A stretch of DNA of 64,000 nucleotides from the human T2T-CHM13v2.0 reference genome, Homo sapiens. The notes under the pieces were generated by a model. The model searched no databases. It was not told the DNA's origin and saw only the letters and a program-made list of their open reading frames with translations. Shown one piece after another: positions 16,804 to 43,075 of this stretch (position 1 is its first letter; each line of letters starts with the position of its first letter). The translations under genes and the position numbers were made by a program. The stretch lies in NCBI RefSeq assembly GCF_009914755.1, contig NC_060929.1; one strand, 5' to 3'.

Positions 16804-19035
16804 CCCAAGTCAAATGGAGAAGCCTTCTAGAAATGCAGCACTGCTGACAAAGGGACCCTCTACAAAGTGCTCACTTTCCCAGAGGAGAAGGAATTTACTG
16901 AAACCTGAGAGAGAAATGTAGATGCTCTCGTACCCGCTCTGAGCTCTGCTCAGAGGCTCCTAAGAGGGCTCCCTTAATAAAATAAAATATTTTCACAACA
17001 AAGTGAATAACCGTTAAGTAATCTGCAACATAAATACACATGATTGTCAGTATCCCCAAGATGAAAACTGAGCGGCTCATTCCAGAGCTAAACTTTCAAC
17101 TGCCAACGTCTGTAACAAGGAGTGGAGTATTCCTGGGATATCGAGAAGGAATATTGGTGACCCAGGACCTGAGCCCAGCTCTCAGGCCTGGGAGTTCAAG
17201 AGCCTGAACAAAGGCATGAGAGATTTGGTTGGTAGCAAGAGCCCAACATCACCCAGGGTTCTCGGGAAGCTATTCAACAAGTTATTAGAATTGCTTTCTT
17301 CGATGTGCAGCCGCTGTTTTTCCCTTGAAGAAACCAGAACATTGGGTCAGGTGTAGAGAAGGTGGAAGGGTCGTGGCAGGTACCTTGCTCAGCCTGGGGC
17401 AGTGGGCATCCCAGCCCAGGTGGCAGCTTCCCTGGGGTGTAGGTGTGGAGATGGGCAAGGTTTGCAGGAGTTCCTGTGGGCCAGAGACAAAAGAGGCCAG
17501 TCAGCTTCTGGAAGCCAAATAGACCAGGAGGGCCTTTTGAAAAGACTGAGAAGGTCCTGGGTGGTGGCCCTGGCCCAGCCCTGGAGGGGCTGCTGGCAGT
17601 GGAGAGGGGAAGAACCTGGGGGGCAGAGGTGGAGTGGAAATGCTGTTCCTGTTTGGGAAAGGGCAGGACAAGGGCAGGTACTTTGACCCGGAACGGGCTC
17701 TTCTGGGAACACAGAGACTCCAGTGACAGAGGGACGCTCCCCAGCCTCACACACCTCAATCATCTTTGGATTGTTCCAAATGGATAAAGAAGATGAGGTT
17801 TAAAGAGCTTTGAGGTGTTCAGTAAGGCAGCCAGGTTAGGCTTCAGAAAGGTGGTGTTCTACAGGGGCCAAGTGTGTGTGGTACGGCCAGGAAGGGCTGT
17901 CCTTGTGGCCTTGTTTGCCATTCCCCTGCCTCCTTTCTGGGGTGGCCTTCACTAGTTCCCCCATCACCTCCCCCAGCTCTGTCCTGCCCAGGCCCCAGGA
18001 GGAACCCAGCTGCTTTAGGAGCACAGCAGCCAAGCGGGTCACAGCACAGTCTGACACAGGCCGGCAGGGCAGGGACCATCATGCCTCCTGGCTCCAGATG
18101 CACTGGGCAAGGGCCTGGGGTATACGGGCACTTTCTGAACCAGCTTCCAGGATGCAAAAAGAAGGAAGCCAGCTGTGCCAATGTGAATATTACAACTCCC
18201 ACACTTGGCAAAGAACATCTACCACGCACATCCTCCATGAGGCAAAGAATAGGCTGGTGGATGCATCTGCAGTGAAGATGCCAGATAAAGGCTGACTCCA
18301 GTGTGACCCTGCAGGTGCGCCTCACCCAAATGTGCCCAAGCCCAGAGCAGTGACCAGCAATACAATGGCAGTGACGACTGGTAGGGAGGGCAGTGGGACT
18401 TCGGGGCTGTGTGCCCACCTCAGGATCCATTGCTCCTGGATCTCACCTTTCTGCAGGGGAAGAGCAAGAACCCATGAGTGCCTGGCCTGGGGCCGAGCGG
18501 AGCTGTTCCTACCCTGTGCCCATCTGGCACCAGCTACTCATAGAGGGCGTGCTCAGTTGCCACTGGATTTCAAGGATGATGTTCAAGAAGTTGTCTTTAG
18601 TCTGGATTCTAATGGCCATTGTGGGTAGGGGCTTTTGGAGGCTGAGAGGAAGAAGGATGAGGAGGAGGGGGAGGCAAAACGGTCTCCACATATCTGTACT
18701 GCTTGGAGGTACCGTGGTCTTCCCTAACCTGTGTGGATCTGAAGTGGCCTGGCCCACATCCTCTGTAAAGGCCCAGCACGGGTGAGGGCGGTGCAGGAGA
18801 TTCAGGGGGTGTGGGGGTTGGGGGGGATGATGAGGTGTGGGGAGAAGCCCCAGTGGACTGATACTCTTTTCTGATATGGAACCTCCACGACAAACACATC
18901 AACTTATTCATCATTTTCTGTAAAGAAAAGATCAGTAAGGCTGGAAACAATGTAAAAGGTTTCTCCTCACCTCACCAAGGAAGATAAGACAGAGCAGGCA
19001 CGGCTGAGAGGCAGCCTGGCTCTGAGCTCACCTGG
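16804..19035 (-). pseudogene. Unprocessed IL3-like paralogue pseudogene, 5 exons, head-to-head with IL3
   Basis: Minus-strand exons: E1 18691-18542 MWRPFCLPLLLILLPLSLQKPLPTMAIRIQTKDNFLNIILEIQWQLSTPS (16/50 ungapped identities to IL3 E1); E2 18450-18419 KGEIQEQWIL; E3 17858-17755 NTTFLKPNLAALLNTSKLF/fs/TSSSLSIWNNPKMIE; E4 17473-17432 ELLQTLPISTPTPQ (42 nt, as in IL3); E5 from 17322 EKQRLHIEESNSNN..FPRTLGD. Promoter, intron edges and 3'UTR are colinear with IL3. Donors 1 and 4 and acceptor 4 are mutated. Confidence 0.88.
18735..19035 (-). promoter_or_regulatory. Promoter relic of the IL3-like pseudogene
   Basis: Minus strand TGGAGGTTCCATATCAGA (18887-18870) vs IL3 TGGAGGTTCCATGTCAGA (24396-24413). 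GATGAATAA (18912-18904) and ACTGATCTT (18936-18928) are identical to IL3 24368-24376 and 24341-24349. Confidence 0.8.
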
Positions 19036-19879
19036 GTCTGTCTGTGCCCCTGCCTAGCTAGCATCTGGTCCTGTCCTTCCCTGGACAGCTCTGACCTGCA
19101 GCTGCCCACCCAGGCCGGCCCTTCCCCTCTCTCCCTGGGAGGCAGACAAGACTTCGCATGGCAACATCATCTACACAACTAATGCTCCATGTGAAGTCTC
19201 CCCCACTTAAGAGAGCATTTCCTGAGGGCCTGGACTGCCAGGTTCTTAGCATTTATGCCCCAACCTTGTCACCTCACAGTTTGGGGGCAGCTTCTTTGAG
19301 AACGGGGAGCTCTTGGTTTTGTCTGCGATAGATATGATAAATGCAATAGGAATGCATCTTCCAAAGCTTTGTATTTCAGGTGGGTAACAAGAGAGTGACA
19401 GACACTGAAAGCCCATAACTTATTAATAACAATAGGAACCATATGGCCACCCCAGGTATCCAGATATTGGAGCCCTGGATTGAGGCCAACAGATGGAGCA
19501 CCTGCAGCCCCAAACCCAGCACTCCCTAGGGAACACTTCTTCTGTGGCTTGCCTGGCTCCAGATCATCCTTTAGGTCATAGCTGTCCTTTCCTCCTGTCT
19601 TCTCTGATGGTGCAGGCTGGATGAGGCTGCCTCATTTCTGGGCTTCTGTCTCCCACAGGCATATCATTCTAAATGGGGATTCTCCAACTGTCTTCTCTAT
19701 TAGACTGGGCCTGGGATGGAGGGTCTGCTCTGCACCGACTGGGCCCCAAGGAAGCCATGACCCTGCAGCAGGGAATAGAAAGGCGAGGGTGCACAGGTGG
19801 AGGCTGTGTAGGTCTTGGGGATGGAGTGCAGAGCCAGGTTGGGACAGGAGGCCAGGGCTCTCCAGCTGGGCCCGCTCGG

Positions 19880-20150
19880 TGGCTTTTTCCTGAGCTCTCT
19901 GCTCAGGTGAGCAGGGGACATCTGGTTGCACTGCTTGGCTGGCCAAGAACCCTGAGCTGCCTTCTGTGGTGACAAAACCAGGCGATGTCATCAGGGCCAC
20001 CAGCGGAAATACAACCGAGGTCATGGGCAGATTAAATCTGACACTTGTGATGCCATGGAAAGGGTGGCGGAGGAGCTTGTCACAGTGACTGAGGCCCAGG
20101 TTCTTGCCTGTGGCGGGTACCCCAGAAAATTCCACTAGGCCTGTGGGGGT
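19880..20150. promoter_or_regulatory. Probable IL3 -4.5 kb enhancer
   Basis: 4.5 kb upstream of the IL3 TSS. NFAT tggaaa (~20056), kB/NFAT-like gaaaattcca (~20124), RUNX-like tgtggt/tgtggc, AP-1/CRE-like gatgtca. Assignment rests on position plus motifs. Confidence 0.6.
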
Positions 20151-21624
20151 GAGTGATGGGAAGAAGGAGGCATGTACCTCTAGTTGGACTGGACCCTGAG
20201 GGCCAGGACTTCCAACAATGTGGCCCACTCCATAGGGATGGGGTCAGGCCCACAGGGATCCATTAGACAGGGGTCCAGAGACCCCTCCTGAAACCTCCAG
20301 GGCTTTGGCAGACCCTGGGCTGCAGTCTTGGGCTGGCTCTCCTGTCCGGGCCCTGGCACACCCTCCCTCATGCCTGCCCCAGGGGTGGGCACGTGTGCTC
20401 ATTTCCCTTCTTGATAGCAATCAGCCCAGCCCACAAAGGAGGTTTCCCCTAAGCCGGGCTGGGTTGACACAAAGGCCTGGGGTGGAATCACCATCTTACA
20501 GGGGACCAGGTCTCTCCTCAAGGGCTGGCAGGACTGTCGCCTCTGGAGGAGGGAAGTGGTGCCCATGATTTTGCATGAAGCTCCTATAGAGTCAAGGCAA
20601 ACCTTGAAGGAGACCCCCAGGATGACCCAGGCTATGCCTCGGTCCAAGGGCTCACGGAAGCGCTGTGGTGGCCAACTACCCAGATATCCTTGGCAGCCCC
20701 TTTGGAATGAGGTTTGCTTTTAGGAACATGTCCCTCCATTCCTCCCTGGTTCATCGAACGGCAGCAGGTATTGGGCTGCAGTCACTGGGCCTCTCCGGGG
20801 TCCGGGGCTGCACCACCTCCTGCCTCCTTTGCTCTGCCCAGCTGGCCTCCCTGCCCATCCCAGCCTCCTCCCATGGCCCCACTCCCTGCCTCTGGGGCCT
20901 TCCATTCCATATTCTTGCCTGCCAAGGCCCTGGGTCCTCCCAACCTCCTCGCCCTCTGACCCCAGGCTGCCAGCCCCTCAAGGTCACCTCCAGGTAGTCA
21001 CAGCTCAAGCCACCAAACCTCACCACCCTTATTGCTTCTAGCCCCACCTCAGGGGCTGACTTGACCTCTATTTCACAGAGAACACAGAAGCCATTGTCCC
21101 CTCCCACCACAAACCTGTGGACCAACCAGGCCCACCCCACTGCACCTACCCCACCCAGATGGACTGGGCCACCCAGGCAGCCCTTCCCTGAGCTCTCTGC
21201 GAGGAGCCCGTGACAGCTGATGGTGGGGCTCTGCCTGTGCTGGCCGGCCAGCCATCTCACCCATTCCCGGCTCACCTCCTTAAGAGAGGAAGGAGCTCAA
21301 ACTTCTGTGTGGAAGGTGCGTCTCTGACCCTGTGACTCCTCTGGCTGCCCCATCCCCCTCTTTCCTTCAAAATAAAACTTCAAAGAATCTTCTACCCTCC
21401 GTCTCACCGTCACTCGCTTCTCAGCCCACTGCCAGAGGCTTTGCCCCACCATACACTGAAACTACTCCGCCAGAGGCCTCAGGGATCTCCCCGTCAGTAA
21501 TCAGAGTGGTTACATCTCATCCTCACCCTGCTGTCCCCTCCTGCCACATGGCATCATCCTTTAAGGCCGTCATTGTCCGATGCTGCCCAGGGGGTGCTCA
21601 GCCTCTGGGTTGGACTGTTCTGCT

Positions 21625-22810: not shown

Positions 22811-24219
22811 GGAAATCTGTCTCCTCACAAGACTGAGCTGCTAGTGGAGGTTACCATGTCTGTTTTATTCACAGCAAGTGCTTTGTAGACGTCTGTTGAA
22901 TGAATTGTGCCTACGGAGTACGCAAGCTGGTGCTAAGGCTCCCCTCTGTGTGTTGAGTTGTGCCTGTCAGACTCCACTCCGGGTCCAGAACCTAGGGCTC
23001 TTCCTGGTCCAGGGCCCAGCCTGGGGCTGAGCCAGGAGGGCATATCAGCTACAGAAATCATCCTCACAGCATGGCCTTGAGTCACAGCCTCTTCACCTGC
23101 CTCCCCACAGCCACATCCTGGTCCTTGTCTTCACCTGATCTGCTTATGCTCAGAAGCCCAAAGCACCCAAATTCCGCTGCCTCAGCATAACCTCCTATCC
23201 CGCATCCCCCACACTGATCACAACACACCGCACCATGACCCAGACCCTGGCCTTTCCTTACTGCTCTCCTCTCCCTCCCACCCGGGGCCAGTCATCTTGA
23301 AGAAGTCTTCCACATGCCCCTGTCACACTCATCCCTTTACCAAAAGCCCCTACCCCATGGGGTGGGTCAGGCAGGCCCCAAGACAGGCCCGTATCAGGAG
23401 GACCCCTCTTCTCTCAGGGGCTGCCCTCTGGGATAACCACCCCCGCCCTTCTGGGTTTCCTGCTTCCTATCTGGCTGCAGTTTCTCAGGTCCCTTGTGGA
23501 TTTCCCCATGGTCTGTCCCCACTCACATCCCCTCTCTGCAAACCTTGCCTACTGGGCCTGCACCTGGCAAATCCATGCTCAGCACAGACGGGGATCAAGA
23601 CCTCTCAATACAACTGTCTCCTGCCAATCCCTGCCCCAGCAGCCTGAGGCCCAGTCTGAAACCAGGGAGTTGCTCTCCTTTCTCCTCCCTTGACCTCACC
23701 CCTCAGACCATGCCAATTCTGCCTCCTAAACCTCCCAGGCCAGCCCCTCCCCCAGCTCCCAGTGACAGTGTCCTCAGGTACCTGAGCTCAGCTCTCGGTG
23801 CTACCAGAGGGACTGCCAGGGGCTGCAGCCGGGCCTCCTGCAGAGGCTGAGTCCCACACGCAGGGAACAGCCATGCCACTGCTAGCAGACCAGTAAGAGA
23901 ATGGCCACCTGGGGCCTGAGCGCCCTCGGCCATCCACCAGAAACAAAGTGTCAAGGAGAAGCTGCCCGAAGCCCATGGGACAAACCACTGGGGACTGGAA
24001 CACCAGTAATTCTGTATTGGGAAGCGGCACCAAGAGATGTGCTTCTCAGAGCCTGAGGCTGAACGTGGATGTTTAGCAGCGTGACCGGCTACCAGACAAA
24101 CTCTCATCTGTTCCAGTGGCCTCCTGGCCACCCACCAGGACCAAGCAGGGCGGGCAGCAGAGGGCCAGGGTAGTCCAGGTGATGGCAGATGAGATCCCAC
24201 TGGGCAGGAGGCCTCAGTG

Positions 24220-24524
24220 AGCTGAGTCAGGCTTCCCCTTCCTGCCACAGGGGTCCTCTCACCTGCTGCCATGCTTCCCATCTCTCATCCTCCTTGACAA
24301 GATGAAGTGATACCGTTTAAGTAATCTTTTTTCTTGTTTCACTGATCTTGAGTACTAGAAAGTCATGGATGAATAATTACGTCTGTGGTTTTCTATGGAG
24401 GTTCCATGTCAGATAAAGATCCTTCCGACGCCTGCCCCACACCACCACCTCCCCCCGCCTTGCCCGGGGTTGTGGGCACCTTGCTGCTGCACATATAAGG
24501 CGGGAGGCTGTTGCCAACTCTTCA
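24220..24524 (+). promoter_or_regulatory. IL3: IL3 proximal promoter
   Basis: AP-1 TGAGTCA 24223-24229, ETS-like ttcct ~24239, ACT-1 ATGAATAAT 24369-24377, RUNX TGTGGTT 24384-24390, CK-1 GAGGTTCCAT ~24398, GATA ~24411, GC box, TATAA 24494-24498, TSS ~24524. Confidence 0.92.
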
Positions 24525-24575
24525 GAGCCCCACGAAGGACCAGAACAAGACAGAGTGCCTCCTGCCGATCCAAAC

Positions 24576-24737
24576 ATGAGCCGCCTGCCCGTCCTGCTCC
24601 TGCTCCAACTCCTGGTCCGCCCCGGACTCCAAGCTCCCATGACCCAGACAACGCCCTTGAAGACAAGCTGGGTTAACTGCTCTAACATGATCGATGAAAT
24701 TATAACACACTTAAAGCAGCCACCTTTGCCTTTGCTG
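24576..24737 (+). CDS. IL3: Interleukin-3 exon 1
   Basis: MSRLPVLLLLQLLVRPGLQAPMTQTTPLKTSWVNCSNMIDEIITHLKQPPLPLL, donor gtgagt; Pro at codon 27. Confidence 0.99.
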
Positions 24738-24835
24738 GTGAGTAGCTTGGATAAGACTGGCCTGCAGCAGTGAGGGGTGGTGGCTGCCTAAGGCCAAAAG
24801 GCCTCATGGGCCTTTCTCTCCCTTCACCCCCACAG

Positions 24836-24877
24836 GACTTCAACAACCTCAATGGGGAAGACCAAGACATTCTGATG
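24836..24877 (+). CDS. IL3: Interleukin-3 exon 2
   Basis: cacag|DFNNLNGEDQDILM|gtaaga. Confidence 0.99.
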
Positions 24878-24894
24878 GTAAGAGCTCAGCCCGT

Positions 24895-25075
24895 GGATCC
24901 CGATCCACTTCCTGCCTGGGTGACTTCAGCCATGTCATTCCATCTTACCTAGCCTTGCTTTCTTCATCTGTAAAATAGGGTTAATAGCACCTATCTCAGT
25001 GGGATTGTTATGACAATCAAATGGCACAATGTGCATGTTCTGGCCCAGCATCTGGCACTTAAGAGTTCAATACAT
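24895..25075 (+). mobile_element. MIR in IL3 intron 2
   Basis: gggtgacttcagc...ttcttcatctgtaaaatagggttaatagcacctatctca. Confidence 0.8.
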
Positions 25076-25619
25076 GGCCACAGCCATGGCTATAATAATG
25101 AAAATGACTTTTAAATTAGAAAATGAAAAGGCAGTTCTAGGTGAGGAATACCAAGGGCCTTAAGGTCAGTGTTTGGTAGGGCAGACTCTGGACTGACAGA
25201 CAGAAATTTCCCCCTCAGATGTGCCAGCTTCTTTTTCCCTTAAAAAATTGAGTTTGTGTTTTCCACCCTCATTGGCTGTGGCATTATCATTTACAGTTAT
25301 TTTTCATGGTTCCAGTTGGTTGCAGTTGTTCTGTCTCACCTTTGCATGACATTTCTTGGGTCAAACAAGAAGTGGAAGCCTTTGCTGAGTTCCTGGGCCA
25401 TCTGTGTTTGGGGCACTCACAGCTCACATGCTGCACCCATTTCCATGCTGGGGTCTCTGTGATTTTCTTCTTGATTTCTAGGAGACTTTAATTCAGTCAG
25501 GGCATGAACACTGTTATCAGCCTCTGAGCTACAAATACTTCCCTTGGAAAACCCCCTGTCTTTTGTAGAGCTTCTTTTTGGAGATATTTTTTCCCCCAAG
25601 TGCAGAAAGATCCACCTAG

Positions 25620-25928
<309 letters not shown>

Positions 25929-26180
25929 CCCACCTAGGCCCTTTATGTAGCTCAAATGGAGCCAGAGACTGGGGGCTTGAGGAAACCAGGTCCTGCCTGC
26001 CACTCACTTCTAGGCCTGTGCCCTTGGGCAGGGACCCACCTGAGGCAAGAACGGGACTAGGAGGGAACCCGAGGATGTCCCCAACAGTGGGCTTGGGAAA
26101 CTGTGGGGGTGACTTCCACCTGCTTGTGGGAGGGATACTCTGTAACCTTTCCCCCTTAAGTGTATTCTCTGCCCCGTTAG

Positions 26181-26270
26181 GAAAATAACCTTCGAAGGCC
26201 AAACCTGGAGGCATTCAACAGGGCTGTCAAGAGTTTACAGAACGCATCAGCAATTGAGAGCATTCTTAAA
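26181..26270 (+). CDS. IL3: Interleukin-3 exon 3
   Basis: ttag|ENNLRRPNLEAFNRAVKSLQNASAIESILK|gtatgt. Confidence 0.99.
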
Positions 26271-26394
26271 GTATGTGAAGCTGTTGAGGGTTTGGGATCC
26301 CTGTGTTGGCCCTGCCCTGCCTCTGGGGAGGAGAGCAGGGCCCACTCCCTTTCCAAGGGAATCTCTGACCATCTGCTTTGGTCTCTTTCCACAG

Positions 26395-26436
26395 AATCTC
26401 CTGCCATGTCTGCCCCTGGCCACGGCCGCACCCACG
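26395..26436 (+). CDS. IL3: Interleukin-3 exon 4
   Basis: cacag|NLLPCLPLATAAPT|gtaagc. Confidence 0.99.
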
Positions 26437-26537
26437 GTAAGCTGTCCCCCAAGATGCCCGTCATGGCTTGCTCCTCAGCTGGTCATCACCATTACAGCCT
26501 GGACTCACCTAATGCCACCTTCTTGGTTTCTTTATAG

Positions 26538-26660
26538 CGACATCCAATCCATATCAAGGACGGTGACTGGAATGAATTCCGGAGGAAACTGACGTTCTAT
26601 CTGAAAACCCTTGAGAATGCGCAGGCTCAACAGACGACTTTGAGCCTCGCGATCTTTTGA
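26538..26660 (+). CDS. IL3: Interleukin-3 exon 5
   Basis: tatag|RHPIHIKDGDWNEFRRKLTFYLKTLENAQAQQTTLSLAIF*; total 152 aa. Confidence 0.99.
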   Translation, partial: RHPIHIKDGDWNEFRRKLTFYLKTLENAQAQQTTLSLAIF

Positions 26661-26886
26661 GTCCAACGTCCAGCTCGTTCTCTGGGCCTTCTCACCACAG
26701 AGCCTCGGGACATCAAAAACAGCAGAACTTCTGAAACCTCTGGGTCATCTCTCACACATTCCAGGACCAGAAGCATTTCACCTTTTCCTGCGGCATCAGA
26801 TGAATTGTTAATTATCTAATTTCTGAAATGTGCAGCTCCCATTTGGCCTTGTGCGGTTGTGTTCTCATTTTTATCCCATTGAGACT

Positions 26887-26947
26887 ATTTATTTATGTAT
26901 GTATGTATTTATTTATTTATTGCCTGGAGTGTGAACTGTATTTATTT
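26887..26947 (+). promoter_or_regulatory. IL3: IL3 3'UTR AU-rich element
   Basis: Clustered ATTTA repeats (atttatttatgtatgtatgtatttatttatttat). Confidence 0.93.
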
Positions 26948-27053
26948 TAGCAGAGGAGCCATGTCCTGCTGCTTCTGCAAAAAACTCAGAGTGGGGTGGG
27001 GAGCATGTTCATTTGTACCTCGAGTTTTAAACTGGTTCCTAGGGATGTGTGAG

Positions 27054-27059
27054 AATAAA
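27054..27059 (+). terminator. IL3: IL3 polyadenylation signal
   Basis: AATAAA ~390 nt after the stop codon. Confidence 0.9.
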
Positions 27060-27274
27060 CTAGACTCTGAACAACTGCTTTGTTACCAGTGTCTCAATTT
27101 GACTTGGGACTTAGTGACCATTTTAAGGGAGACTGGTGTGCCACAAATCCTGGGTGGCTTGATCCTGCCACGTGGATGCTGTCTGGGTGAGCTTGTTCTC
27201 ACACTGCCCTCCTGCCACCCCCATTTCCAGAAAGGTGATGATAACCCTAGCAATCTTGAAAATCCACAGAACTG

Positions 27275-27455: not shown

Positions 27456-27474
27456 TGCTAATCCTGTGGCATGT

Positions 27475-27506
27475 CTCCCCCTAGTGGTCCTTCCAGAAAC
27501 TGCAGC
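27475..27506 (-). promoter_or_regulatory. CTCF site A (IL3 +2.9 kb), reverse orientation
   Basis: Minus strand gctgcagtttctggaaggaccactagggggag: CTCF core plus upstream TGCAG module; fits the known IL3/CSF2 insulator. Confidence 0.85.
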
Positions 27507-28715: not shown

Positions 28716-28747
28716 GCTGCAGTTTCTGGATTGACCACTAGGGGGAG
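28716..28747 (+). promoter_or_regulatory. CTCF site B (IL3 +4.2 kb), forward orientation
   Basis: gctgcagtttctggattgaccactagggggag. Confidence 0.85.
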
Positions 28748-29403
28748 GTGTGTGCCACTGGTCTCAGGGCACTTCAGAGGTCCTGGAGGAGCCAGGCCTG
28801 AGAGGGTAGGGTGAGAGGTCTGACTCTGGACTGGGTTTCCCAAGTCTCCTGCACACCCAGCTCCCCCCAGCCCTCACTTTCCCTCCCTCTCGCACGTGAC
28901 AGCTAGTCCTGTTTTCATCCTGGGCTGAGGCAGCATTTGTGCCCCAGCCCCATGTTCCCAGATGAGTCGCTGCTTGCCACCTCCTCTTCACACCCTGGAG
29001 AGTGGGTCAGCAGCTGTCTCCTCTGCTGGTCCTGTGTTAGTGACTGATGCCTGCAAGAGGCAGGGTTAGTGGCTGGATCAGACACAGACCTGGTGCACGA
29101 GGCCAGTCGTCAGGACCTGTCGCTGGCGGAGGGTGGCACGCGGAGGTGACATGCTGGAGAGGGCAGTGGGCGGACCTTTTCAGATGCGCTGGGGGCTCCT
29201 CGCTGACCTTCTGGAATAGTATAGACTGCAGCTTAAAGCCAGACTGGGGCCAGAACCAAGTGGCAGTCAGTTCCTGGACAGGCTGGGGGAATTTCTACAT
29301 GCTTTGACAGAAGGTTTATGTTCCCTCCAAATTTGTATGTTAAAATTGAATCCCCACTGTGATGGCATTAGGATGTGGAGCCTGTCCTTTGGGCCAGGTC
29401 TGT

Positions 29404-29430
29404 GTGTCCAGATGGCGCCAGGGGGCAGCA
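29404..29430 (+). promoter_or_regulatory. CTCF site C (IL3 +4.9 kb)
   Basis: gtccagatggcgccagggggcagca contains two overlapping CTCF-like cores (ccagatggcgc and cgccagggggcagc). Confidence 0.65.
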
Positions 29431-29597: not shown

Positions 29598-32500
29598 AAA
29601 AACTATTGTTTTTCATTGGAGGAGAAGATGGGAAAGCGTATATACTCTTTACTGAAAAACTTGGAAATGCAGAAAAATAGAACAAAGGGAAAATTGACAG
29701 AAAGGCAAGTGCCTAAGGAGGGCAGAACTCAGAAGGCACAACAAGCCTCACCCCTTGACAGGAATCCTCCCACTCCAGGAAGGGGCTCTGTTCCTCCTGC
29801 CCTGGACTCAAGCCCCCATTTGACTCAGTGGAGCAACTGCTCTGAGGACCCTCCACGGCTCCCCCAGGCTGGGGCGGGCATAGGTGAGACACTGGGCCAG
29901 GCCTTTCAGGCCTCCTGGCCTTGTGCAGTTGGCCCAGCACAGTGCGGTGGGGGTCATTACAGACAGCACAGGACCGACGGATGGGCGTGGACCTCATCGG
30001 AGGCACTGCCCATGGGTGGCACAGAAGGGGCCTGAGAGAGAAGTTCATCCAGCAGAGAAGGGTGGGAAAAGCACAGGGAAGGAAGGAGGCAGATGCCCTG
30101 GGGGAGGAGGGCATGGAGGTCGAGAAGACAAGGTAAGCGGAGGCACAGGAGAGACTAAGCAGTGGAGAGGCCAGAGTGTGGCTGGGTGCCAAGTGTCCAA
30201 GGTGAAGGCTGTGCCCTGGGTCACTGCTTTTGCCCCTGGAGCCCAGCCAGCCTGGGCCCCAGGCACCTCTGGGTCTTAGCTAGTCTCTTCTCCCCATTCC
30301 TCCCTCTCTGATCCCAGGCCAGCCCAGCCCAGACTGGCCGCTGTGGAGACGGTAAGACTGGACGACTGTGGCCTGAGGAGGGGTGGGTGGAGGGAGGCGG
30401 AAGGACAGGATGGAGCCATGGCAGACACTGTGTGTTTAACACCAACAAGAAGGAGCAAGGGCAGAGGGAGAGAGGTGCTGGAGGAAATAGGGGCTGGTCC
30501 AGCAGAGGGGAATCCCTGGGCCCAGGAAGATGGGGGACCCATGGTGGGAGAGAGGGAGAGGAGGCAGAGGTGGTGTGGACCAGGGGTGGGGGCTAGGGGC
30601 CCAACTTTCCCCCTTGAAAGCCTCAGATCAAGCTCAACGAGGTGGGTCAGCAAAGTTGCTGCTGCCCTCCTGGACTGAGAAGGGACTCAAAGAATCCCCA
30701 CAATGACCCAGGCACCCAGGCTGTGATTATCCCCATTACACAGACAGAGACTGAGGCAGAAAAATGAAGGTTATTTGAGTCCAGAGCCTCTGAATCCTTA
30801 AGCAACAGTGGTTCACTAATGCCCACTGAGGCCCAGGAATTCTTTTAAGTCTGACCCTGGATGTGCCTGGGGTCTCCCCTTGACTGGATCCAAGCCTCCC
30901 GTGTTAACTTCTGCCCTACAACCTCCTGGTTCCAGGCCCACAGTGAGCAGCGCAGCCTTAGCGCCTCAGCTCCATGCTTCTCACCTGACCACTCTCATAT
31001 TGCCCAGTAAATGCCTCTACACGCCCATCTGTCCTGTCCTCCTACCTGGCACCCCCTCCCCACAACCAACACACACATTGGGGGCTTAGATCCAGGGAGG
31101 TGGTCCTCTGTGCTCCTCTTTGTCTCTGTCCCCATGCCTTAAGGAACTTCTGAGAGAGACCCTGGCTCCCAGCTGTCCCCTGCCATGGCTGGTTGTCAAG
31201 GCCTCCTCCAGCTCCCACTCAGGCTCCCCAAAGACCCCAAGCTCAACTCTACCTCCAGCCATGGCTCATGAGTGACCCCTTCCCTTTCCCTTCCATGAGC
31301 CCTCCCTGCCCTGTGGGGTCCATGGAATCCTTCTGGTGTGAGGCCTCCTTCCCTCCTCCTCAGACTCATGAGCCCTTGACCCAGGGTGCTCCCGGGACCT
31401 GCTTTGGCAGAGACTTGCCTGGGGCCTGCACTTGGAGACTCAGCCCTTTCCTGGAGGGAAAGTGGGCTGTGCTGGAGATCAGCGGGCAGCAAGGACAGCA
31501 GGCTGTGTGGATGATGTGTGTGCCCTGAGGGGCCAAGTCAGGGTGTCAGGGAGGGAGGACAGCTGTGGGGAGGCAACGGAGGGCAGCGGGCGCCGGAGCG
31601 AAGGCCGAGCAGCAGAGCAGGGGTCTCCTTCCCTGCCTCCCTTCGTGAGCACCAGCTGCGCACCTGCTCTGTGTCCTGATCCCATGGGCTGGGCCGAGGC
31701 CCTCCTGAGCATAAGGAATAAAAACACTGGGCAGCCGCCACTACCATTCAGAGAGCCTTGAATCAGGGAGGATGTCCCCATGCAGTGGGTCTGTGATCAA
31801 CATGACTCCCCTGCTCTCCCAGGCTGATGGCCAGACTCAAGAGCTGCCCCTGGCAGCCTTGGACCACCTCCTCCCCACCAGGACAAGTGGAAAGACTGAG
31901 GAGGATGGTTCCCTGTCCTGGTGTTCCAAGCTGGCTCTTTCTGGAAAATCTGTATGGCTCAGCCACTTTGCCATCAGTCAGGCTCGAGCACCAGGATGCA
32001 GGTGGCGTTTGCCTCCTGGGGCTGGGGTGGGGAGGCTTTAGGGCCCTGGGGAGGGGTCTACACAGGCCCACTTCCCATGAGGGAAACCTAAATTTACACT
32101 CACCTCCAGGGAATGAGAAGGCTGGGAGGCTGGTCCGGACCCTGGTAACCATTCCCTCTCTTTGATGGACAGCGAGACTGAGGCTAGATGGAGGCACCTA
32201 GCAAGCCAAAACAGAAAACCAAAACAGAAACACCTTCCCTTGCAGATATCCAGTGCATCTCCCAACAGCCTGCAAAAGTAGTGCTGCATGCCCTGTGGGG
32301 TGAGCCAGCCGGGGCTCAGAAGGGGCAGGCCACAGGCCAAGGACATGCAGCGAGCTGTGCCTGCCCAAACAGGGCCTCAGGGAAAGTCTGAGGGACCCGT
32401 GAGGGATCCAGAAGAGTCTTGGAGGAGGCTCATTCCAGAACCACTCGTCCTGCTGAGAGCAGAAAGCCCACATCTGCCACCTCAATTCTGACCCATCAGT

Positions 32501-34369: not shown

Positions 34370-35086
34370 AGATCTCAGGTCCCCAGAGATAACAAGAACC
34401 CTCATCAAGGGTTGGACAGGTCAAAGAAGGATCAGATCAGCCCCAAAGCCTGTGCGGGGGTGCCATGGTACCGAAGGGACTTTGAGGCCCATTTCCTTCC
34501 CCTTGTGATAATGTCTCTCGTGATAAGGATCCTGGAGTGACTCAAGCCCCTGTTTCCTACAGAGCCTGTGGGGTGGACACGCATAGGAAACTCCTTCCAG
34601 AGGGTTTTCTCCTGTCTCTGTAGGAAGGGGGGCCCCAGAGGGGTCATACCACCCATCGTGGTCCCCGCCTCTGCCCTGCCACAGCCCCATCGGAGCCCCT
34701 GAGTCAGCATGGCTGGCTATCGGTTGACACTGTTTAAAATACAGTGCAATCTAGGAATGCCTGCCTGTGTCATGGCCTCAGCCCTGATGTCATCTTTCCA
34801 TGAGAAAGATGTGTGGCTGCCCACAAACCTCATCACCAAACCCATGGATTTCTGTCCTGTTTGTGCTGACTTGGGCACCTGCAGGCCACCACTGCCGAAA
34901 TGGATTTCTTATTATGACTCTTGCTTTCCTCCTTTCCTTCCCTCCTAGGCCCTTGGCCACTGGCCTGTTACTTGCCCATCTGTTATGTCCCAGCCCTTAA
35001 ACACAGCTTTGCTGGCCCTCAGCTCTTCTTCCTGAATAACTTCCGTGGCCTCAGCTACCACACAGACATGTACCGCTGCCAGATCT
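34370..35086. promoter_or_regulatory. CSF2 -3 kb enhancer (717-bp BglII fragment)
   Basis: AGATCT at 34370 and 35081. GATA x2 (34506, 34521). AP-1/NFAT composites: TGACTCA..TTTCC 34538-34557, TGAGTCA 34700, TGATGTCATCTTTCCA 34785-34800, TGACTC..TTTCC 34915-34929. RUNX palindrome TGTGGCTGCCCACA 34812-34825. Confidence 0.92.
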
Positions 35087-37470
35087 GTCTCCTGTACATG
35101 CAGACTCTGAAACTCCAAAACTTCCCGTGGGCCTCACGCTCTGAAGATCTGCTCCTTTGTCCCCTGGGTCCTCACCTTAGCCATGTGGACAGTGATTCTA
35201 ACTCCTCTTACTCACATTCAAAGCACACTTTGGTGGGGGGGGAGGGGGGTGAGTAGACTAATCTTGCTCCTCCATGGATGGGGTTAAAAAGTCCTTGGAG
35301 GCAGGACCCTGACCGTTTTTGTCATCCTTATGTCCCTTTTCCCTGCTGGGAACCTAGTAGATGCTCAAAAAATAATGAATGACTGAGTGACTTCACTATA
35401 GCACCAAGTCCTGTTGAGATTCTACCTCCTCAATCTCTCTGGAGTCTGCCTGCTGTTCCTTATACCCATTCCTAAAACCCCAGGGCTCCCTGTGCCCAGA
35501 ACATTCTCCCCTGTCCTCTCCTGCCCCTCTCCTTCCAACCCAACGTACCCACCTGACTTCTAGCCTTTCAGCCTGGGCTTGCAGGCAGGATCTCTAGTGA
35601 AGCTCTCTGGTCCCCTTGGATCCCCAAGCTAGAGAAGGTGGCCCTCTGGGATCCCTCAGCTCTGGACTTCCCCCTGCCGAGTCAAGGTCACACCATGGGA
35701 GGGTCCATTGCAGTCTGTTTCCTACCAGACTGGGAGCCTCAAGGGCCAAATGTGAGGGCCAGTGGGAGGGTCCCGTTTACCTCCCCAGAACAGGTCCTGG
35801 TGTGGATTGGAAAGACTTGTTGACTGACTGTCTGAGCTATGACAACTCATTTCTAGGAGGAAAGTGACCTTCTCTCCCAGATGGGTCATACAGGCTCTCT
35901 GCCTCCCTGGCCATCAGCTGAACCACTATCTATGGCTCCCTTCCCTGCCCTCCAGCCTCCAGGGTGCTATCCAACACATGTGATATCTACATGTAGTATC
36001 CATGTCCTCATCTCTCCCCCGAGAGCTCCCTGGAAAGAGCTGAGCCAAGGCCTTGCAAAAAAGGTGGAGAAAGGGCCAGGGCCTGGACATTTCATGTTCC
36101 CACCCCAGCCTGGCCACTAGGAGTGTTCTACGCAGGCTCAGATGGATGGGGCTGGCCTCACAGTGGGGTCTGGAGGACTAAGGTTTGGTTTCTCTATGCA
36201 AGGTCAGAAAAACTCCCACAGTACAGGGAAACTGGCCAGGGCTGCAGACTCAGACCACAGTGCTAAAGCCATGAACTCCACCTGCTCTCTGAAGGCTCGC
36301 CAACCTGAGTCCAGCAGAATGTTCTCGCTTGTGTCCAACCCCACTGGTTTAGGCTGAATCAGCCTCTAGGGCCCAGAGGCACTGCACCTGGAGTAGGGAG
36401 CTTCTCCAGTATCAGAGTCACCTTCAGAGGCCTGGAGCCTTTCATAAAGCAGGTAAGAGGACTCAATAGATGCATCTGCATGGAAAACATCCTCCCCTCT
36501 ACCAGGCACCTGTATGTACAACCAATCACAGCAGCACACATACACCCAGAAATGGGCACGTGTGGGCCCACACCCCTTTAGCTATGAAACCCAGGCATGG
36601 GGCAGCTTGAGCCAGATACCTTGTGCAAACACAAACTCGTGCTGTCTTCTCTGAACTCCATTGTGAAAATCAAACACTTGTCAGCCCCTCAAGAGCCTTT
36701 AGATTTCCTACTTCCACACTTCCACAGAAAGGCCTCTGGAGTTGGGGGATGCTGGGGTTATGTAGGAAATTAAGCCTGGAGGGCCTTGCTGGGGAAGCCA
36801 TTGTCCCTGTACCTGAGATGGATGCAGCCACAGCCCTGGAGCCAGCCTGAAGCTCCTGGTGTCTTCTGGGGGCTACATATAGGAGTGTAGTCCGAACCTC
36901 AGAGGGGCAAACCTGCTCTGCAGAGGGAATCAAGGTTCACATAACCAGAGAGGGGAGTCACTCAGGAAGGTGGCTCCAGAGCCAAGAGTCAGACTCTGGG
37001 TCCCGACTTGACCCAGCCACACCCCCTCTGAAGCTTGCTGAGAGTGGCTGCAGTCTCGCTGCTGGATGTGCACATGGTGGTCATTCCCTCTGCTCACAGG
37101 GGCAGGGGTCCCCCCTTACTGGACTGAGGTTGCCCCCTGCTCCAGGTCCTGGGTGGGAGCCCATGTGAACTGTCAGTGGGGCAGGTCTGTGAGAGCTCCC
37201 CTCACACTCAAGTCTCTCACAGTGGCCAGAGAAGAGGAAGGCTGGAGTCAGAATGAGGCACCAGGGCGGGCATAGCCTGCCCAAAGGCCCCTGGGATTAC
37301 AGGCAGGATGGGGAGCCCTATCTAAGTGTCTCCCACGCCCCACCCCAGCCATTCCAGGCCAGGAAGTCCAAACTGTGCCCCTCAGAGGGAGGGGGCAGCC
37401 TCAGGCCCATTCAGACTGCCCAGGGAGGGCTGGAGAGCCCTCAGGAAGGCGGGTGGGTGGGCTGTCGGTT

Positions 37471-37879
<409 letters not shown>

Positions 37880-37950
37880 TAGGCCACCCAGCTGGCCCCT
37901 GACTGGCCACGCCTGTCAGCTTGATAACATGACATTTTCCTTTTCTACAG

Positions 37951-37992
37951 AATGAAACAGTAGAAGTCATCTCAGAAATGTTTGACCTCCAG
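37951..37992 (+). CDS. CSF2: GM-CSF exon 2
   Basis: tacag|NETVEVISEMFDLQ|gtaaga. Confidence 0.99.
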
Positions 37993-38502
37993 GTAAGATG
38001 CTTCTCTCTGACATAGCTTTCCAGAAGCCCCTGCCCTGGGGTGGAGGTGGGGACTCCATTTTAGATGGCACCACACAGGGTTGTCCACTTTCTCTCCAGT
38101 CAGCTGGCTGCAGGAGGAGGGGGTAGCAACTGGGTGCTCAAGAGGCTGCTGGCCGTGCCCCTATGGCAGTCACATGAGCTCCTTTATCAGCTGAGCGGCC
38201 ATGGGCAGACCTAGCATTCAATGGCCAGGAGTCACCAGGGGACAGGTGGTAAAGTGGGGGTCACTTCATGAGACAGGAGCTGTGGGTTTGGGGCGCTCAC
38301 TGTGCCCCGAGACCAAGTCCTGTTGAGACAGTGCTGACTACAGAGAGGCACAGAGGGGTTTCAGGAACAACCCTTGCCCACCCAGCAGGTCCAGGTGAGG
38401 CCCCACCCCCCTCTCCCTGAATGATGGGGTGAGAGTCACCTCCTTCCCTAAGGCTGGGCTCCTCTCCAGGTGCCGCTGAGGGTGGCCTGGGCGGGGCAGT
38501 GA

Positions 38503-38847
<345 letters not shown>

Positions 38848-39518
38848 TAGGGGGTGGGGTCGACATGGGGAGAGATCTATGGCTGTGGCTGTTCAGGACC
38901 CCAGGGGGTTTCTGTGCCAACAGTTATGTAATGATTAGCCCTCCAGAGAGGAGGCAGACAGCCCATTTCATCCCAAGGAGTCAGAGCCACAGAGCGCTGA
39001 AGCCCACAGTGCTCCCCAGCAGGAGCTGCTCCTATCCTGGTCATTATTGTCATTATGGTTAATGAGGTCAGAGGTGAGGGCAAACCCAAGGAAACTTGGG
39101 GCCTGCCCAAGGCCCAGAGGAAGTGCCCAGGCCCAAGTGCCACCTTCTGGCAGGACTTTCCTCTGGCCCCACATGGGGTGCTTGAATTGCAGAGGATCAA
39201 GGAAGGGAGGCTACTTGGAATGGACAAGGACCTCAGGCACTCCTTCCTGCGGGAAGGGAGCAAAGTTTGTGGCCTTGACTCCACTCCTTCTGGGTGCCCA
39301 GAGACGACCTCAGCCCAGCTGCCCTGCTCTGCCCTGGGACCAAAAAGGCAGGCGTTTGACTGCCCAGAAGGCCAACCTCAGGCTGGCACTTAAGTCAGGC
39401 CCTTGACTCTGGCTGCCACTGGCAGAGCTATGCACTCCTTGGGGAACACGTGGGTGGCAGCAGCGTCACCTGACCCAGGTCAGTGGGTGTGTCCTGGAGT
39501 GGGCCTCCTGGCCTCTGA

Positions 39519-39722
<204 letters not shown>

Positions 39723-39921
39723 GACCGGCCAGATGAGGCTGGCCAAGCCGGGGAGCTGCTCTCTCATGAAACAAGAGCTAGAAACTCAGGATGGTCATCT
39801 TGGAGGGACCAAGGGGTGGGCCACAGCCATGGTGGGAGTGGCCTGGACCTGCCCTGGGCCACACTGACCCTGATACAGGCATGGCAGAAGAATGGGAATA
39901 TTTTATACTGACAGAAATCAG

Positions 39922-39992
39922 TAATATTTATATATTTATATTTTTAAAATATTTATTTATTTATTTATTTAAGTTCATATTCCATATTTATT
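39922..39992 (+). promoter_or_regulatory. CSF2: CSF2 3'UTR AU-rich element
   Basis: taatatttatatatttatatttttaaaatatttatttatttatttatttaa, the prototype class II ARE. Confidence 0.95.
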
Positions 39993-40018
39993 CAAGATGT
40001 TTTACCGTAATAATTATT

Positions 40019-40024
40019 ATTAAA
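40019..40024 (+). terminator. CSF2: CSF2 polyadenylation signal
   Basis: ATTAAA just after the ARE. Confidence 0.85.
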
Positions 40025-41138
40025 AATATGCTTCTACTTGTCCAGTGTTCTAGTTTGTTTTTAACCATGAGCAAATGCCAGTGGTGCCTGCCTTCCCATG
40101 AGGCAGGGGAGGGAGGAAACGGGGAGGTGGAGAGGGGGCGGGGGCCTCCCAGGCGTTGGGCACTATCCAAGGGCCAACACTGTCAGAGCAGAGGGGAGGT
40201 GAGAGCCGGGCATAGGTGCGGAATTCTGCACACCTGGACGGGCTTCCCGGGATGCTCCAGGGCTCCCACCCCAGAGAATGGCTCTCAAGTTCACCTGGAA
40301 GTCCAAGTGACCAGCCCAGGGAACTCTTATCCCAGAGAAGGGCACCACCCTTCCTGGGGAGGCCTGGGGGTTGGCTGGTCACTGGCTGAACAGGCCCACT
40401 CTGGCATCAGGCAAAACACCTGCCCTGTAGAGGCCTTGGCCCCTGTGCCCCACGCCCTGCCCCTCACACTCTGAGATTTAACCATTCCGAAAGTAAACAG
40501 CAAAATAGACTAACTGTTCAGGGGAAAAGAAACCAAACCACAGGGGTCACAGTGCAGCGTATTTACCAAACTTGCCCCAAAATGGGTGATCTTAATCTCT
40601 GAGAGTCAGAATGTAAGGTCATAATTTGTTGGTACATGGCTGTAGTGCCGCATGTTTCTGAATTGGTTTTTATTTTTACATGAAATTTTGAATCTAATCA
40701 GGCACTTTCCCCTAAAACTCATGGCCTGCAGGCTAAAAACAAAGTAGGCCTCCTCCTTCTCCTTACTTTGACAGCTGGGCTCAAGGCCTTGTTCCTGAAC
40801 CTGTTCCCTCATCTCCCTCCAGGACTATGAGGAAGTGGATGTGCCCCAAGTCTTAGGCGGGCAGCAGGGCCAGCTTCTCCTTGACAGGTGGGCCTAAGGA
40901 AGCTGGCTTGTGGCAGCTTTAGCCCCTGCCTGGCACTGTCTGCAGTCATGCGCCCACCACCCCTCTTGCTTCCTCTACTTCAGTCAGCACCTGCAGACAG
41001 CGCCAGGCCTGGCCAGAGACCCACTCCATGCTCATGCAGAAAGACCGTGACTTCAGGTGTGATTACAAATAAGAAGTCAGGGTGAACGCTCAGGATGAAG
41101 CCTGAGTGTCAGCACAGGCAAGAATCCATGAAGTGTGC

Positions 41139-41260
41139 TGTGGTTGTTGAAAATGCATGAAAATCACATCTTGCCCAGCGATAAGGTCCTCTCTGTCTTC
41201 CGCGTAAGCCAGTGATGACTGATAAGAGGTTTAGCATTTCCTTAGCCTCACATATATAGG
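41139..41260 (+). promoter_or_regulatory. Promoter of the KK34-like pseudogene
   Basis: RUNX TGTGGTT 41139, GATAAG 41180 and 41221, CLE0-like CATTTCCT 41235-41242, TATATA 41253-41258, accATG at 41331. Confidence 0.7.
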
Positions 41261-41330
41261 TACCCCTCTCCACAGAAATGCTGCCAAGCCCAGGGCTCGG
41301 ACCAGCTTGGAGTCACCTTCAAGTAATACC

Positions 41331-43075
41331 ATGCACCTGTACGTGCTCCTGGCTCATGTGCTCTGGGGGTCAGAAAGCCATTCTTCCCAATGAAAGTAGC
41401 CACGATATCTCCCCACGAAAAGTACACAGCAGTCTGTGCTGACATTCAGAAAGAACTCTCGGCTGACAATAACACACACAAGATAAGTCTGGGTCTCCAT
41501 CAAACGTTATTTTGCTCTTAGTGCCCCTTTGTGCTCCTGACCAATTTCTCTGGCTTCCGGGGTCCCTTCAATAGGCCCCAGAAAACCAGTGAGGTAAGAA
41601 ACAGCTGCCCCGGGACCTTTCATACCACATTTGAACAGGGAGAGAGAGATCTCACCAGTCAGTGCCCAGGGAAGAGATAACAACAAGGGATAGTGGAGTG
41701 AGAAATCTGGGAGAAAGCTCAGAGTGTGGGGATGGAACCTCCAGCTCAGTCAGCAGGTGAGCCTCCCAACCAAGTGCAGCCCTGAGCCCAGGGAGAGACC
41801 AGATGCCCATTGCCTCCACTGTTTGGCCTGCGAGACCCACAGGTCTCCTTGTGGGAGAATCAGGGTAGGGCCTGAGCTTGGGTCCAGGGCTCCTTCCGGC
41901 CAGGTTGACCAGGGATGGATGAGGCTGGGTCATCTGGTGCCCTGCTGTGCACCAGAGCCCTGAACCTGTTTCAGGAGCTCTGCTATGAGGAGTTTACAAA
42001 GAACTTTACCTTCACCCTGAAGAGTCTCATTAACAAATATGACAAACAGGACCATCACATAACGAAGGTTTACATGGACATGGAATAACTCATCAAAATC
42101 TGCCCAAAGCTGAAAGTACATTGTTTGCTGTTTGCTCTTAGCAGAACCTGAGACATCATTTCCCTGCACCACAGCCAGGGGCCCAGTGAGGCAAAGGGCT
42201 TTTATACACCCTGACTGCCACATGCAAGGTCTCTGGTGCTACTCCTAGGCCACAGGTGGCTATCCTCTGGAATTGTCTCCAATCTAAAAGAAGTCTACTC
42301 ACTGACACAAGGTGGAGGGTGGGGAGTGCAGGGCTGGGTGTGAGGAAGTGGGGATTCAGAGATTCTCAGGGTTTCTGTCTGTGCTCTCTGCCAAGCCCCC
42401 ATGCACAGGGATCAGCATGGGATAGGTCTGAGACAGGTCAGAGCAGGACTGGTCATGGACTCAGGCTGAGGTCATGGACTTGAACTGAGAACCAGTGCAA
42501 GCTTGCTCCAGTTTGCCCTGTCCTTGGGGCCTCTTTTGGATGATGAAGCCCACTGAGAACCCATGATGGGGGGATGAGCAGCAGTTTGCAGGGGCATGCC
42601 TGGAGAAGTGACTGAGCTGCCTCCCCCTCTTTTCCCACTGCTCAGACAGTCCTGGGTACTCCTCCCAGCCTGCTTGTCCTTATGTCCCTGTCCTGGACAG
42701 CCACGGGACCTGCCTATCCTGCGGGCTCCCTCTCCAACACTATGGATAGTCCTCAGACTCTGGACCCTTCCATCACCACACAGCCCCTGTGCCCTCCCTC
42801 AAACAGTTGGGGAGGGCTGCCAGTTACCTCCTAGAGGATGGCTGGAAGGACAAGCGTTTGCTTTTATTTATTCATTGTTTTTCCTACTAAGAAGATGACT
42901 GAAATGTGTATTTCTCGTTTAGCCAACAGACTCACCCAAGAATGGTACTATTGAGTAAAGTCATTTCTCCAAGTTCAAGGAAGCCTTATAGAGTGTTATC
43001 ATATCCATAGAAGGATGGAAATCTTCTAAGAGGATCAAGGGCAGCCTCTGGGCTCCTGCCCTCTCCCGAGGTTAG
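41331..43075 (+). pseudogene. Four-exon IL-5/GM-CSF-family cytokine pseudogene, probable human KK34 remnant
   Basis: E1 41331-41482 MHLYVLLA/fs/CALGVRKPFFPMKVATISPHEKYTAVCADIQKELSADNNTHK; E2 41561-41593 GPFNRPQKTSE; E3 41975-42115 ELCYEEFTKNFTFTLKSLINKYDKQDHHITKVYMDME*LIKICPKLK; E4 42923-43075 PTDSPKNGTIE*SHFSKFKEAL*SVIISIEGWKSS... All junctions are phase 0. Confidence 0.88.

What the first reader, a model, noticed from the sequence alone, without database searches (positions are those of the whole stretch)
16804..43075. Locus is a fossil four-cytokine cluster arranged as two insulated pairs
Seen: order is IL3-like pseudogene (-), IL3 (+), divergent CTCF sites, CSF2 (+), KK34-like pseudogene (+). 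The 5-exon genes lie left of the insulator and the 4-exon genes right, each pair with its own nearby enhancer and one surviving gene. Inference: the regulatory layout evolved for four genes, and some unexplained hypersensitive sites may be orphan promoters.
Basis: inference. Interest (0 to 1): 0.7.

Follow-up and report, generated by a model that had tools for sequence, protein, structure and literature searches.

The report
Dead IL3 twin beside human IL3
Next to the human immune-signal gene IL3 lies a broken, back-to-back copy of IL3 that the gene annotation does not list; it likely worked for a long time, so an ancestor likely carried four related cytokine genes here where humans now use two.

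Summary
The gene order is real. At 16.8-19.1 kb (- strand) lies an inverted five-exon paralog of IL3. Its promoter, exons, short introns and 3' end are colinear with IL3 at 59-68% DNA identity, and its read-through scores 41 bits on an IL3-family profile (best shuffle 8.7). Three frameshifts, two dead donors and a lost TATA box disable it; it has no in-frame stop. It is absent from the supplied annotation and from my literature searches. The four-exon remnant after CSF2 fits the published human KK34 pseudogene, and the divergent CTCF pair is the published IL3 insulator. Lesion counts suggest the copy decayed for only part of its history (about 0.04-0.16 substitutions/site against a paralog distance of 0.42-0.53), so a four-gene ancestor is likely. 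No intact orthologue was found. The claim that the layout evolved for four genes is unsupported: the insulator is explained by IL3 versus the CSF2 enhancer and persists in mouse and human. Its outer boundaries show no motif above chance, and no listed hypersensitive site lies on either dead promoter. Verdict: a real, apparently undescribed IL3 pseudogene inside a largely known locus.

The parts
18741..19122 (-). psi-IL3 promoter, paralogous to the IL3 proximal promoter; keeps the CK-1-like box, has lost AP-1, RUNX, GATA and TATA matches
   Evidence: 68% identity, z 12.9; motif scan; TATA alignment. Motif names recalled.
18542..18691 (-). psi-IL3 exon 1: ATG, 50 open codons, hydrophobic signal-like start, helix-A Glu kept; donor GT mutated to AT
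   Evidence: best non-IL3 segment of 3241 on the IL3-family profile, E 0.01
18419..18450 (-). psi-IL3 exon 2, 32 bp (frameshift)
   Evidence: AG/GT flanks, intron 1 + exon 2 alignment z 4.9
17755..17858 (-). psi-IL3 exon 3, 104 bp (frameshift)
   Evidence: its first 20 codons match a bat IL3 at 60%
17432..17473 (-). psi-IL3 exon 4, 42 bp as in IL3; donor mutated to GG; its acceptor is used by the predicted lncRNA LOC105379174 exon 17384-17473, which runs on to a cryptic GT
   Evidence: supplied annotation
17182..17323 (-). psi-IL3 exon 5 coding part (frame offset at its start; helix D poorly kept)
   Evidence: weak on its own
16789..17181 (-). psi-IL3 3' UTR and flank; 1 ATTTA against 6 in IL3, poly(A) signal degenerate
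   Evidence: 64%, z 10.2
19900..20500 (.). approximate place of the published IL3 -4.5 kb inducible enhancer and -4.1 kb primed site, between the two divergent promoters and nearer to the pseudogene (about 1.3-1.7 kb) than to IL3
   Evidence: offsets from PMC4772849 passages applied to the annotated start 24524; not a mirror copy of the -1.5 kb site
24524..27073 (+). IL3, intact, five exons
   Evidence: annotation; translation; Pfam IL3 hits
27476..27505 (-). CTCF site IL3 +2.9 kb with upstream motif
   Evidence: PMC12885311
28717..28746 (+). CTCF site IL3 +4.2 kb with upstream motif; with the +2.9 kb site forms a 90-bp inverted repeat at 76% identity
29415..29428 (+). third CTCF-like core (about +4.9 kb), no upstream motif
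   Evidence: inside an annotated enhancer/enhancer-blocking stretch
34480..34800 (.). CSF2 -3 kb inducible enhancer (NFAT/AP-1/GATA cluster)
37659..40040 (+). CSF2, intact, four exons
   Evidence: annotation
41249..41482 (+). KK34 remnant: TATA, ATG 41331, exon 1 with one frameshift, donor mutated to AT
41561..41593 (+). KK34 remnant exon 2, 33 bp, acceptor mutated to GG (boundary inferred)
   Evidence: the alternative 72-bp exon leaves a 39-bp intron
41975..42115 (+). KK34 remnant exon 3, 141 bp, one stop
   Evidence: weak DUF6217 match, E 0.023, under the cut-off
42923..43075 (+). KK34 remnant exon 4, two early stops; true end uncertain

Best explanation
The locus holds an inverted, complete but broken copy of IL3 upstream of IL3 and a broken four-exon cytokine gene, likely KK34, downstream of CSF2; the IL3 copy likely arose before or around the placental radiation, likely stayed functional for much of its history and likely died later on the human line, so an ancestor likely had four working genes here. 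Mechanism: (1, shown) an inverted duplication copied at least the -400 promoter, five exons and the 3' end of IL3. (2, inferred) It left the two genes head to head 5.8 kb apart, sharing the enhancer region between them. (3, inferred) The copy was kept under selection and diverged as a secreted four-helix, beta-c-binding cytokine (signal-like start and helix-A Glu kept). (4, shown lesions, inferred timing) It was then lost by frameshifts, donor mutations and promoter decay; KK34 was lost separately. (5, from print) The divergent CTCF pair keeps the CSF2 enhancer off IL3, a job that needs only the two living genes. The grouping into 'two pairs' is likely a by-product of local duplication on one side of an older boundary.
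For: Colinear inverted homology with matching exon phases, exon 4 length and short introns. Read-through with X at frameshifts scores 41.3 bits on a 20-sequence IL3 profile; 0 of the 493 reported shuffles (500 made) reach it, best 8.7. Paralog distance 0.42-0.53 substitutions/site, against 5 lesions that simulation fits at about 0.04-0.16; at 0.25, 1% or fewer of 150 runs have so few. The copy is no closer to human IL3 (27%) than to carnivore IL3 (33-36%). The lncRNA model uses exactly the exon 4 acceptor. KK34: intact in cattle, directly downstream of IL-3 and GM-CSF, pseudogene in human (PMC4690019 passage) and mouse (PMC6412223 passage). Insulator function and conservation (PMC12885311).
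Against: No intact orthologue of the copy among 22 hits, 24 hits of 7994 scored candidates or 10 candidates. Exon limits and frames were chosen after the fact, which undercounts lesions. The copy keeps only 21 of 42 family-conserved columns (human 35) and helix D is poor. Single exons do not hit Pfam IL3 (0 of 3 pieces). The protein tree cannot place it, and a clade with primate IL3 is not rejected (p-AU 0.24). The KK34 identity rests on position, exon layout and print, not on an alignment to a real KK34. Calendar dates rest on recalled neutral rates.
Confidence: 0.72

Rival explanations
1. One reading: the insulator, enhancers and unexplained hypersensitive sites evolved to run four genes as two insulated pairs, and some sites are orphan promoters.
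For: Order and divergent CTCF pair confirmed. The -4.5/-4.1 kb elements lie nearer the dead promoter than IL3. The dead promoter is the best-kept part of the copy (68%). The KK34 promoter keeps TATA, RUNX and GATA matches.
Against: The insulator works on IL3 versus the CSF2 enhancer and is conserved in mouse and human, where KK34 is dead. No outer boundary motif above chance. Named sites (-1.5, -4.1, -4.5, -34, -37, -41; CSF2 -3, +22 to +30) miss both dead promoters. The dead IL3 promoter lost AP-1, RUNX, GATA and TATA matches. -4.1 is not a mirror of -1.5.
Confidence: 0.15
2. The IL3 copy was dead soon after duplication, so a four-gene state was fleeting and never shaped anything.
For: No intact orthologue found; long branch (2.7-3.9) in the trees; half of the conserved residues lost.
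Against: Neutral decay over 0.25 substitutions/site predicts 13-16 lesions against 5 seen, and no stop in about 155 codons. Promoter, exons and UTR align while introns 2-3 do not, although constraint on IL3 alone could give part of that pattern.
Confidence: 0.22
3. Hidden paralogy: the gene called IL3 in carnivores, bats and ungulates is the orthologue of the human pseudogene, with reciprocal losses.
For: The copy is closest to bear, cat and fox IL3 (33-36%) and lacks the two cysteines of primate IL3, as those do; it falls among bat-like rows in both trees, without support.
Against: All 19 other IL3s are as close or closer to human IL3 than to the copy. The mispredicted tail of P0023, a carnivore-like IL3, matches window 28961 onward on the + strand (60% over 25 residues, E 0.003), which puts that gene in the human IL3 orientation next to the insulator.
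Confidence: 0.05

Closest known systems
Human KK34 pseudogene (Yamaguchi et al. 2016, PMID 27492645; title seen in a reference list; text not held)
   Same: Position directly downstream of CSF2, pseudogene in human, four phase-0 exons with a short exon 2.
   Different: Nothing found to differ; exon coordinates and lesions here are my own and were not compared with that paper.
IL3 insulator (Bowers 2009, not held; Bowers and Cockerill 2026, PMC12885311)
   Same: Same +2.9 and +4.2 kb sites with identical upstream motif.
   Different: The two text parts read (2 of 5) do not mention pseudogenes; the pair being a 90-bp inverted repeat is seen here, and the paper calls them nearly identical.
IL-3 family (Pfam PF02059) within the IL-3/IL-5/GM-CSF/KK34 beta-c cytokines
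   Same: Five-exon IL3 layout, signal-like start, helix-A Glu, N-L motif of helix B, promoter and 3' UTR homology.
   Different: Inverted, disabled, 19-36% identical to mammalian IL3s, helix D diverged; no second IL3-type gene matching it was found in the protein collections.
Cytokines lost in humans but alive in other mammals (IL-15L, KK34; IL-15L abstract seen)
   Same: Pattern of a decayed human cytokine gene at a conserved cluster.
   Different: For the IL3 copy no living counterpart is known or was found.

Membership tests
Duplicated (unprocessed) IL3 pseudogene | Homology to IL3 across promoter, exons and 3' end in colinear order | tested here: met
   (exon 5 weak alone)
Duplicated (unprocessed) IL3 pseudogene | Five exons, introns at the IL3 positions | tested here: met
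Duplicated (unprocessed) IL3 pseudogene | Protein-level match to the IL3 family | tested here: met
   41.3 bits on own profile, best shuffle 8.7; single exons miss Pfam PF02059
Duplicated (unprocessed) IL3 pseudogene | Disabled coding capacity | tested here: met
   3 frameshifts, 2 dead donors, TATA lost
KK34 | Position directly downstream of CSF2, same strand | tested here: met
   ATG 1291 bp after the CSF2 end; PMC4690019
KK34 | Four phase-0 exons, family-type layout | tested here: met
   152/33/141/open-ended; exon 2 limit inferred
KK34 | Sequence orthology to bovine or chicken KK34 | tested here: inconclusive
   No KK34 protein was retrieved. 8.4 bits on the IL3 profile (best of 404 reported shuffles 4.2; CSF2 scores 12.1), z 1.1 against CSF2; DUF6217 under cut-off; no cytokine among 3 PDB hits
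Functional beta-c cytokine (ancestral state of the IL3 copy) | Intact gene in some lineage, signalling through CSF2RB | tested here: inconclusive
   no intact orthologue; signalling not testable
CTCF enhancer-blocking insulator | High-affinity CTCF sites with upstream motif between enhancer and promoter | tested here: met
   function from PMC12885311
Two insulated neighbourhoods | Outer convergent CTCF anchors and a contact boundary | tested here: inconclusive
   no outer motif above chance inside the window; anchors may lie outside; no contact data available

The most novel reading that the evidence does not exclude
The inverted IL3 copy is the human remnant of a fifth mammalian beta-c-family cytokine, born before the placental radiation and driven from the enhancer region it shares head to head with IL3, that is still intact but unannotated in some living mammals, as happened with KK34 and IL-15L.
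Probability: 0.25. Interest if true: 0.75.

Novelty: new member of a known kind. Interest (0 to 1): 0.5.

Why it matters
The IL3/CSF2 locus is a textbook model of inducible gene regulation, yet a whole paralogous gene sits 5.4-7.7 kb upstream of IL3 without a row in the supplied annotation. If it was functional until fairly late, mammals had one more beta-c cytokine than is recognised. A living orthologue would be a new cytokine, as KK34 was. It also offers a reading of the -4.5/-4.1 kb elements as once shared by two divergent promoters, explains one exon of the antisense lncRNA, and warns that conserved sequence there may be gene remnant rather than enhancer. If it is dead in all mammals, it is a modest addition to the pseudogene catalogue.

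Tried and rejected
Mirror duplication of upstream elements (-1.5 kb versus -4.1 kb): not found; only -1200..-850 gave a weak in-register signal (z 2.5, 1 of 200). Mirror CTCF site beyond the pseudogene: a loose match at 16620 (+) is one of 36 with 32 expected, rejected. A CSF2-like inverted exon at 32280-32360: 67% over 83 columns, z 3.9, 0 of 60 resamples, but no ATG, open frame or further exons; treated as probable chance. A 72-bp KK34 exon 2 was rejected (39-bp intron). Search with pseudogene exon 1 alone found nothing. Trees did not place the copy (one spurious repeat protein P0022, truncated or read-through rows and near-duplicates were left out). The Atlas feature search with a bear IL3 gave only other cytokine clusters. 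PDB search with KK34 exon 3 gave three unrelated chains. Yamaguchi 2016, Bowers 2009 and Baxter 2012 could not be read; supplements of PMC4772849 were not seen and may list further hypersensitive sites.
Full report
What was checked. The window is the human IL3/CSF2 locus (supplied annotation).

The IL3-like pseudogene is real. The IL3 gene compared with the window gives, besides Alu and other repeat matches, three inverted hits in colinear order: promoter 24137-24456 to 19122-18821 (62.5%, E 1.7e-15), intron 3/exon 4 to 17504-17419 (E 3.6e-5) and the 3' end to 17036-16789 (E 9.6e-8). Local alignment against 40 resampled controls put promoter, exon 1, exon 4 and UTR above every control, exon 3 level with the best control, and missed exons 2 and 5. 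Anchored global alignments recovered intron 1+exon 2 (z 4.9) and intron 4+exon 5 (z 3.9). Against 200 Markov resamples the identities were promoter 68% (z 12.9), exon 1 63%, exon 3 62%, exon 4 62%, UTR 64%; exon 5 alone was not significant. Introns 2 and 3 do not align. The five exons are 18691-18542, 18450-18419, 17858-17755, 17473-17432 and 17323-17182. Lesions: frameshifts in exons 2, 3 and at the start of 5, donors of exons 1 and 4 changed from GT, no stop in the homologous frames. The promoter keeps the CK-1-like box but lost the AP-1, RUNX, GATA and TATA matches of IL3 (motif names recalled). An independent check: the predicted lncRNA exon 17384-17473 begins exactly at the exon 4 acceptor and runs past the dead donor to the next GT.

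Protein-level test. IL3 relatives were collected (7 hits, 22, of which P0022 is an unrelated repeat protein). A profile of 20 of them ranked, among 3241 stop-to-stop segments of the window, three IL3 exons first and then pseudogene exon 1 (E 0.01) and exon 3 (E 0.39). The read-through with X at frameshifts scored 41.3 bits; none of 493 reported shuffles of 500 exceeded 8.7. Single pieces did not hit Pfam IL3 (0 of 3, while 3 of 3 IL3 exons did). The copy keeps 21 of 42 conserved columns (human 35), including the helix-A glutamate that PMC4690019 calls functionally important, and is poor in helix D.

Age and life span (inferred). Identities of 62-68% correspond to 0.42-0.53 substitutions/site, far beyond simian distances (recalled). 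The copy is 27% identical to human IL3 but 33-36% to bear, fox and cat IL3. This points to a duplication around or before the placental radiation. The trees cannot confirm it: the branch is long, and a clade with primate IL3 is not rejected (p-AU 0.24). Neutral simulations (150 runs per cell, IL3 as proxy, my own rate settings) fit the 5 lesions at about 0.04-0.16 substitutions/site and predict 13-16 lesions at 0.25. The KK34 remnant's 6 lesions fit about 0.06-0.2. The copy therefore probably lived for much of its history. The caveat is that frames were picked after the fact. Since KK34 is intact in cattle, it was intact on the human line at the boreoeutherian ancestor, so all four genes probably overlapped in time.

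No living orthologue found. A profile seeded with the pseudogene pieces and three IL3s gave 24 hits among 7994 scored candidates: 19 named IL3 or IL3-like proteins of rabbit, bats, carnivores, horse and armadillo, and 5 unnamed. Four of those are intron-retaining reads of ordinary IL3 genes, and one is the pseudogene's own exon 1 run into its intron with one residue changed. In that alignment only exon 1 and the start of exon 3 were placed correctly. The search sees only predicted proteins, so an unannotated gene would be missed. Hidden paralogy is unlikely: the tail of P0023, a carnivore-like IL3, matches window 28961 onward on the + strand.

The right-hand pseudogene. TATA at 41253, ATG at 41331 and four phase-0 exons are present, with one frameshift, three stops and two dead splice sites. 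It scores 8.4 bits on the IL3 profile (best shuffle 4.2; CSF2 12.1) and matches DUF6217 weakly (E 0.023). I could not align it to a real KK34. Print describes this gene: intact in cattle, directly downstream of IL-3 and GM-CSF, pseudogene in human (PMC4690019, passages), pseudogene in human and mouse (PMC6412223, one passage; Yamaguchi 2016, title only). It is known.

Insulator and enhancers. Two exact CTCF sites with the upstream motif point away from each other at 27476-27505 and 28717-28746. PMC12885311 (abstract, introduction and results, 2 of 5 parts, and supplement table S3) shows that one such site blocks the CSF2 enhancer from the IL3 promoter. It also shows both sites conserved in mouse, dog and horse, and the +2.9 kb site in elephant and armadillo. 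That function needs two genes and persists where KK34 is dead. Other CTCF-like matches are at chance. PMC4772849 (passages) names sites at IL3 -1.5, -4.1, -4.5, -34, -37, -41 kb and CSF2 -3, +22, +25, +28, +30 kb. The dead promoters lie at IL3 -5.4 to -5.8 kb and CSF2 +3.6 kb, so none coincides; figures, supplements and two fine-mapping papers were not seen. The -4.5/-4.1 kb elements do lie nearer to the dead promoter than to IL3, which fits once-shared control but does not show it. No contact map of the 27.5-29.4 kb stretch was found (PMC11290521 passages, do not address it).

Novelty. Searches for 'IL3 pseudogene', 'IL-3 pseudogene', 'IL3-like', 'IL-3-like gene', 'IL-3 paralog', 'LOC105379174' found no paper with these terms in the open library. 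A broader search listed none about an IL3 duplicate by title or abstract. The supplied annotation has no row for it, but it has none for KK34 either. Yamaguchi 2016 studied this locus across species and may show it. I rate the IL3 copy as a probably undescribed member of a known kind; the rest of the finding is known or unsupported.

Verdict. Observation confirmed; four-gene ancestor likely (about 0.7); layout evolved for four genes unlikely to be needed (0.15); living fifth cytokine possible (0.25). Interest 0.5.

Noticed in passing
window 32280-32360 (-): 83-column, 67% match to the signal-peptide part of CSF2 exon 1 (z 3.9, 0 of 60 resamples), without ATG, open frame or further exons; a strong donor lies near 32104. 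Probably chance, possibly a very old inverted fragment.
   Followed up: partly
window 27475-27561 and 28659-28747: The two insulator CTCF sites are arms of a 90-bp inverted repeat (76% identity), suggesting that the divergent pair arose by an inverted duplication.
   Followed up: partly
window 17384-17473 (-): Predicted antisense lncRNA LOC105379174 starts inside IL3 exon 5 and splices into the pseudogene's exon 4 acceptor, using a cryptic donor 48 bases past the dead one.
   Followed up: yes
window 23339-23642 versus 19926-19604: Weak homology in almost exact register (-1185 versus -1186 from the two starts; z 2.4-2.5), hinting that the duplicated block reached about 1.2 kb upstream.
   Followed up: partly
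window 28961-29035 (+): Matches the mispredicted last exon of protein P0023, so this stretch inside the insulator is conserved in another mammal; not a human exon as far as seen.
   Followed up: partly
window 52078-52312 and 57037-57265; 59722-59776 and 61091-61145: Direct repeats at 67% and 82% identity outside the masked list; probably old interspersed repeats.
   Followed up: no
window 41133-41240 versus 37457-37572: Weak similarity between KK34 and CSF2 promoters (z 3.3, 1 of 100 resamples).
   Followed up: no
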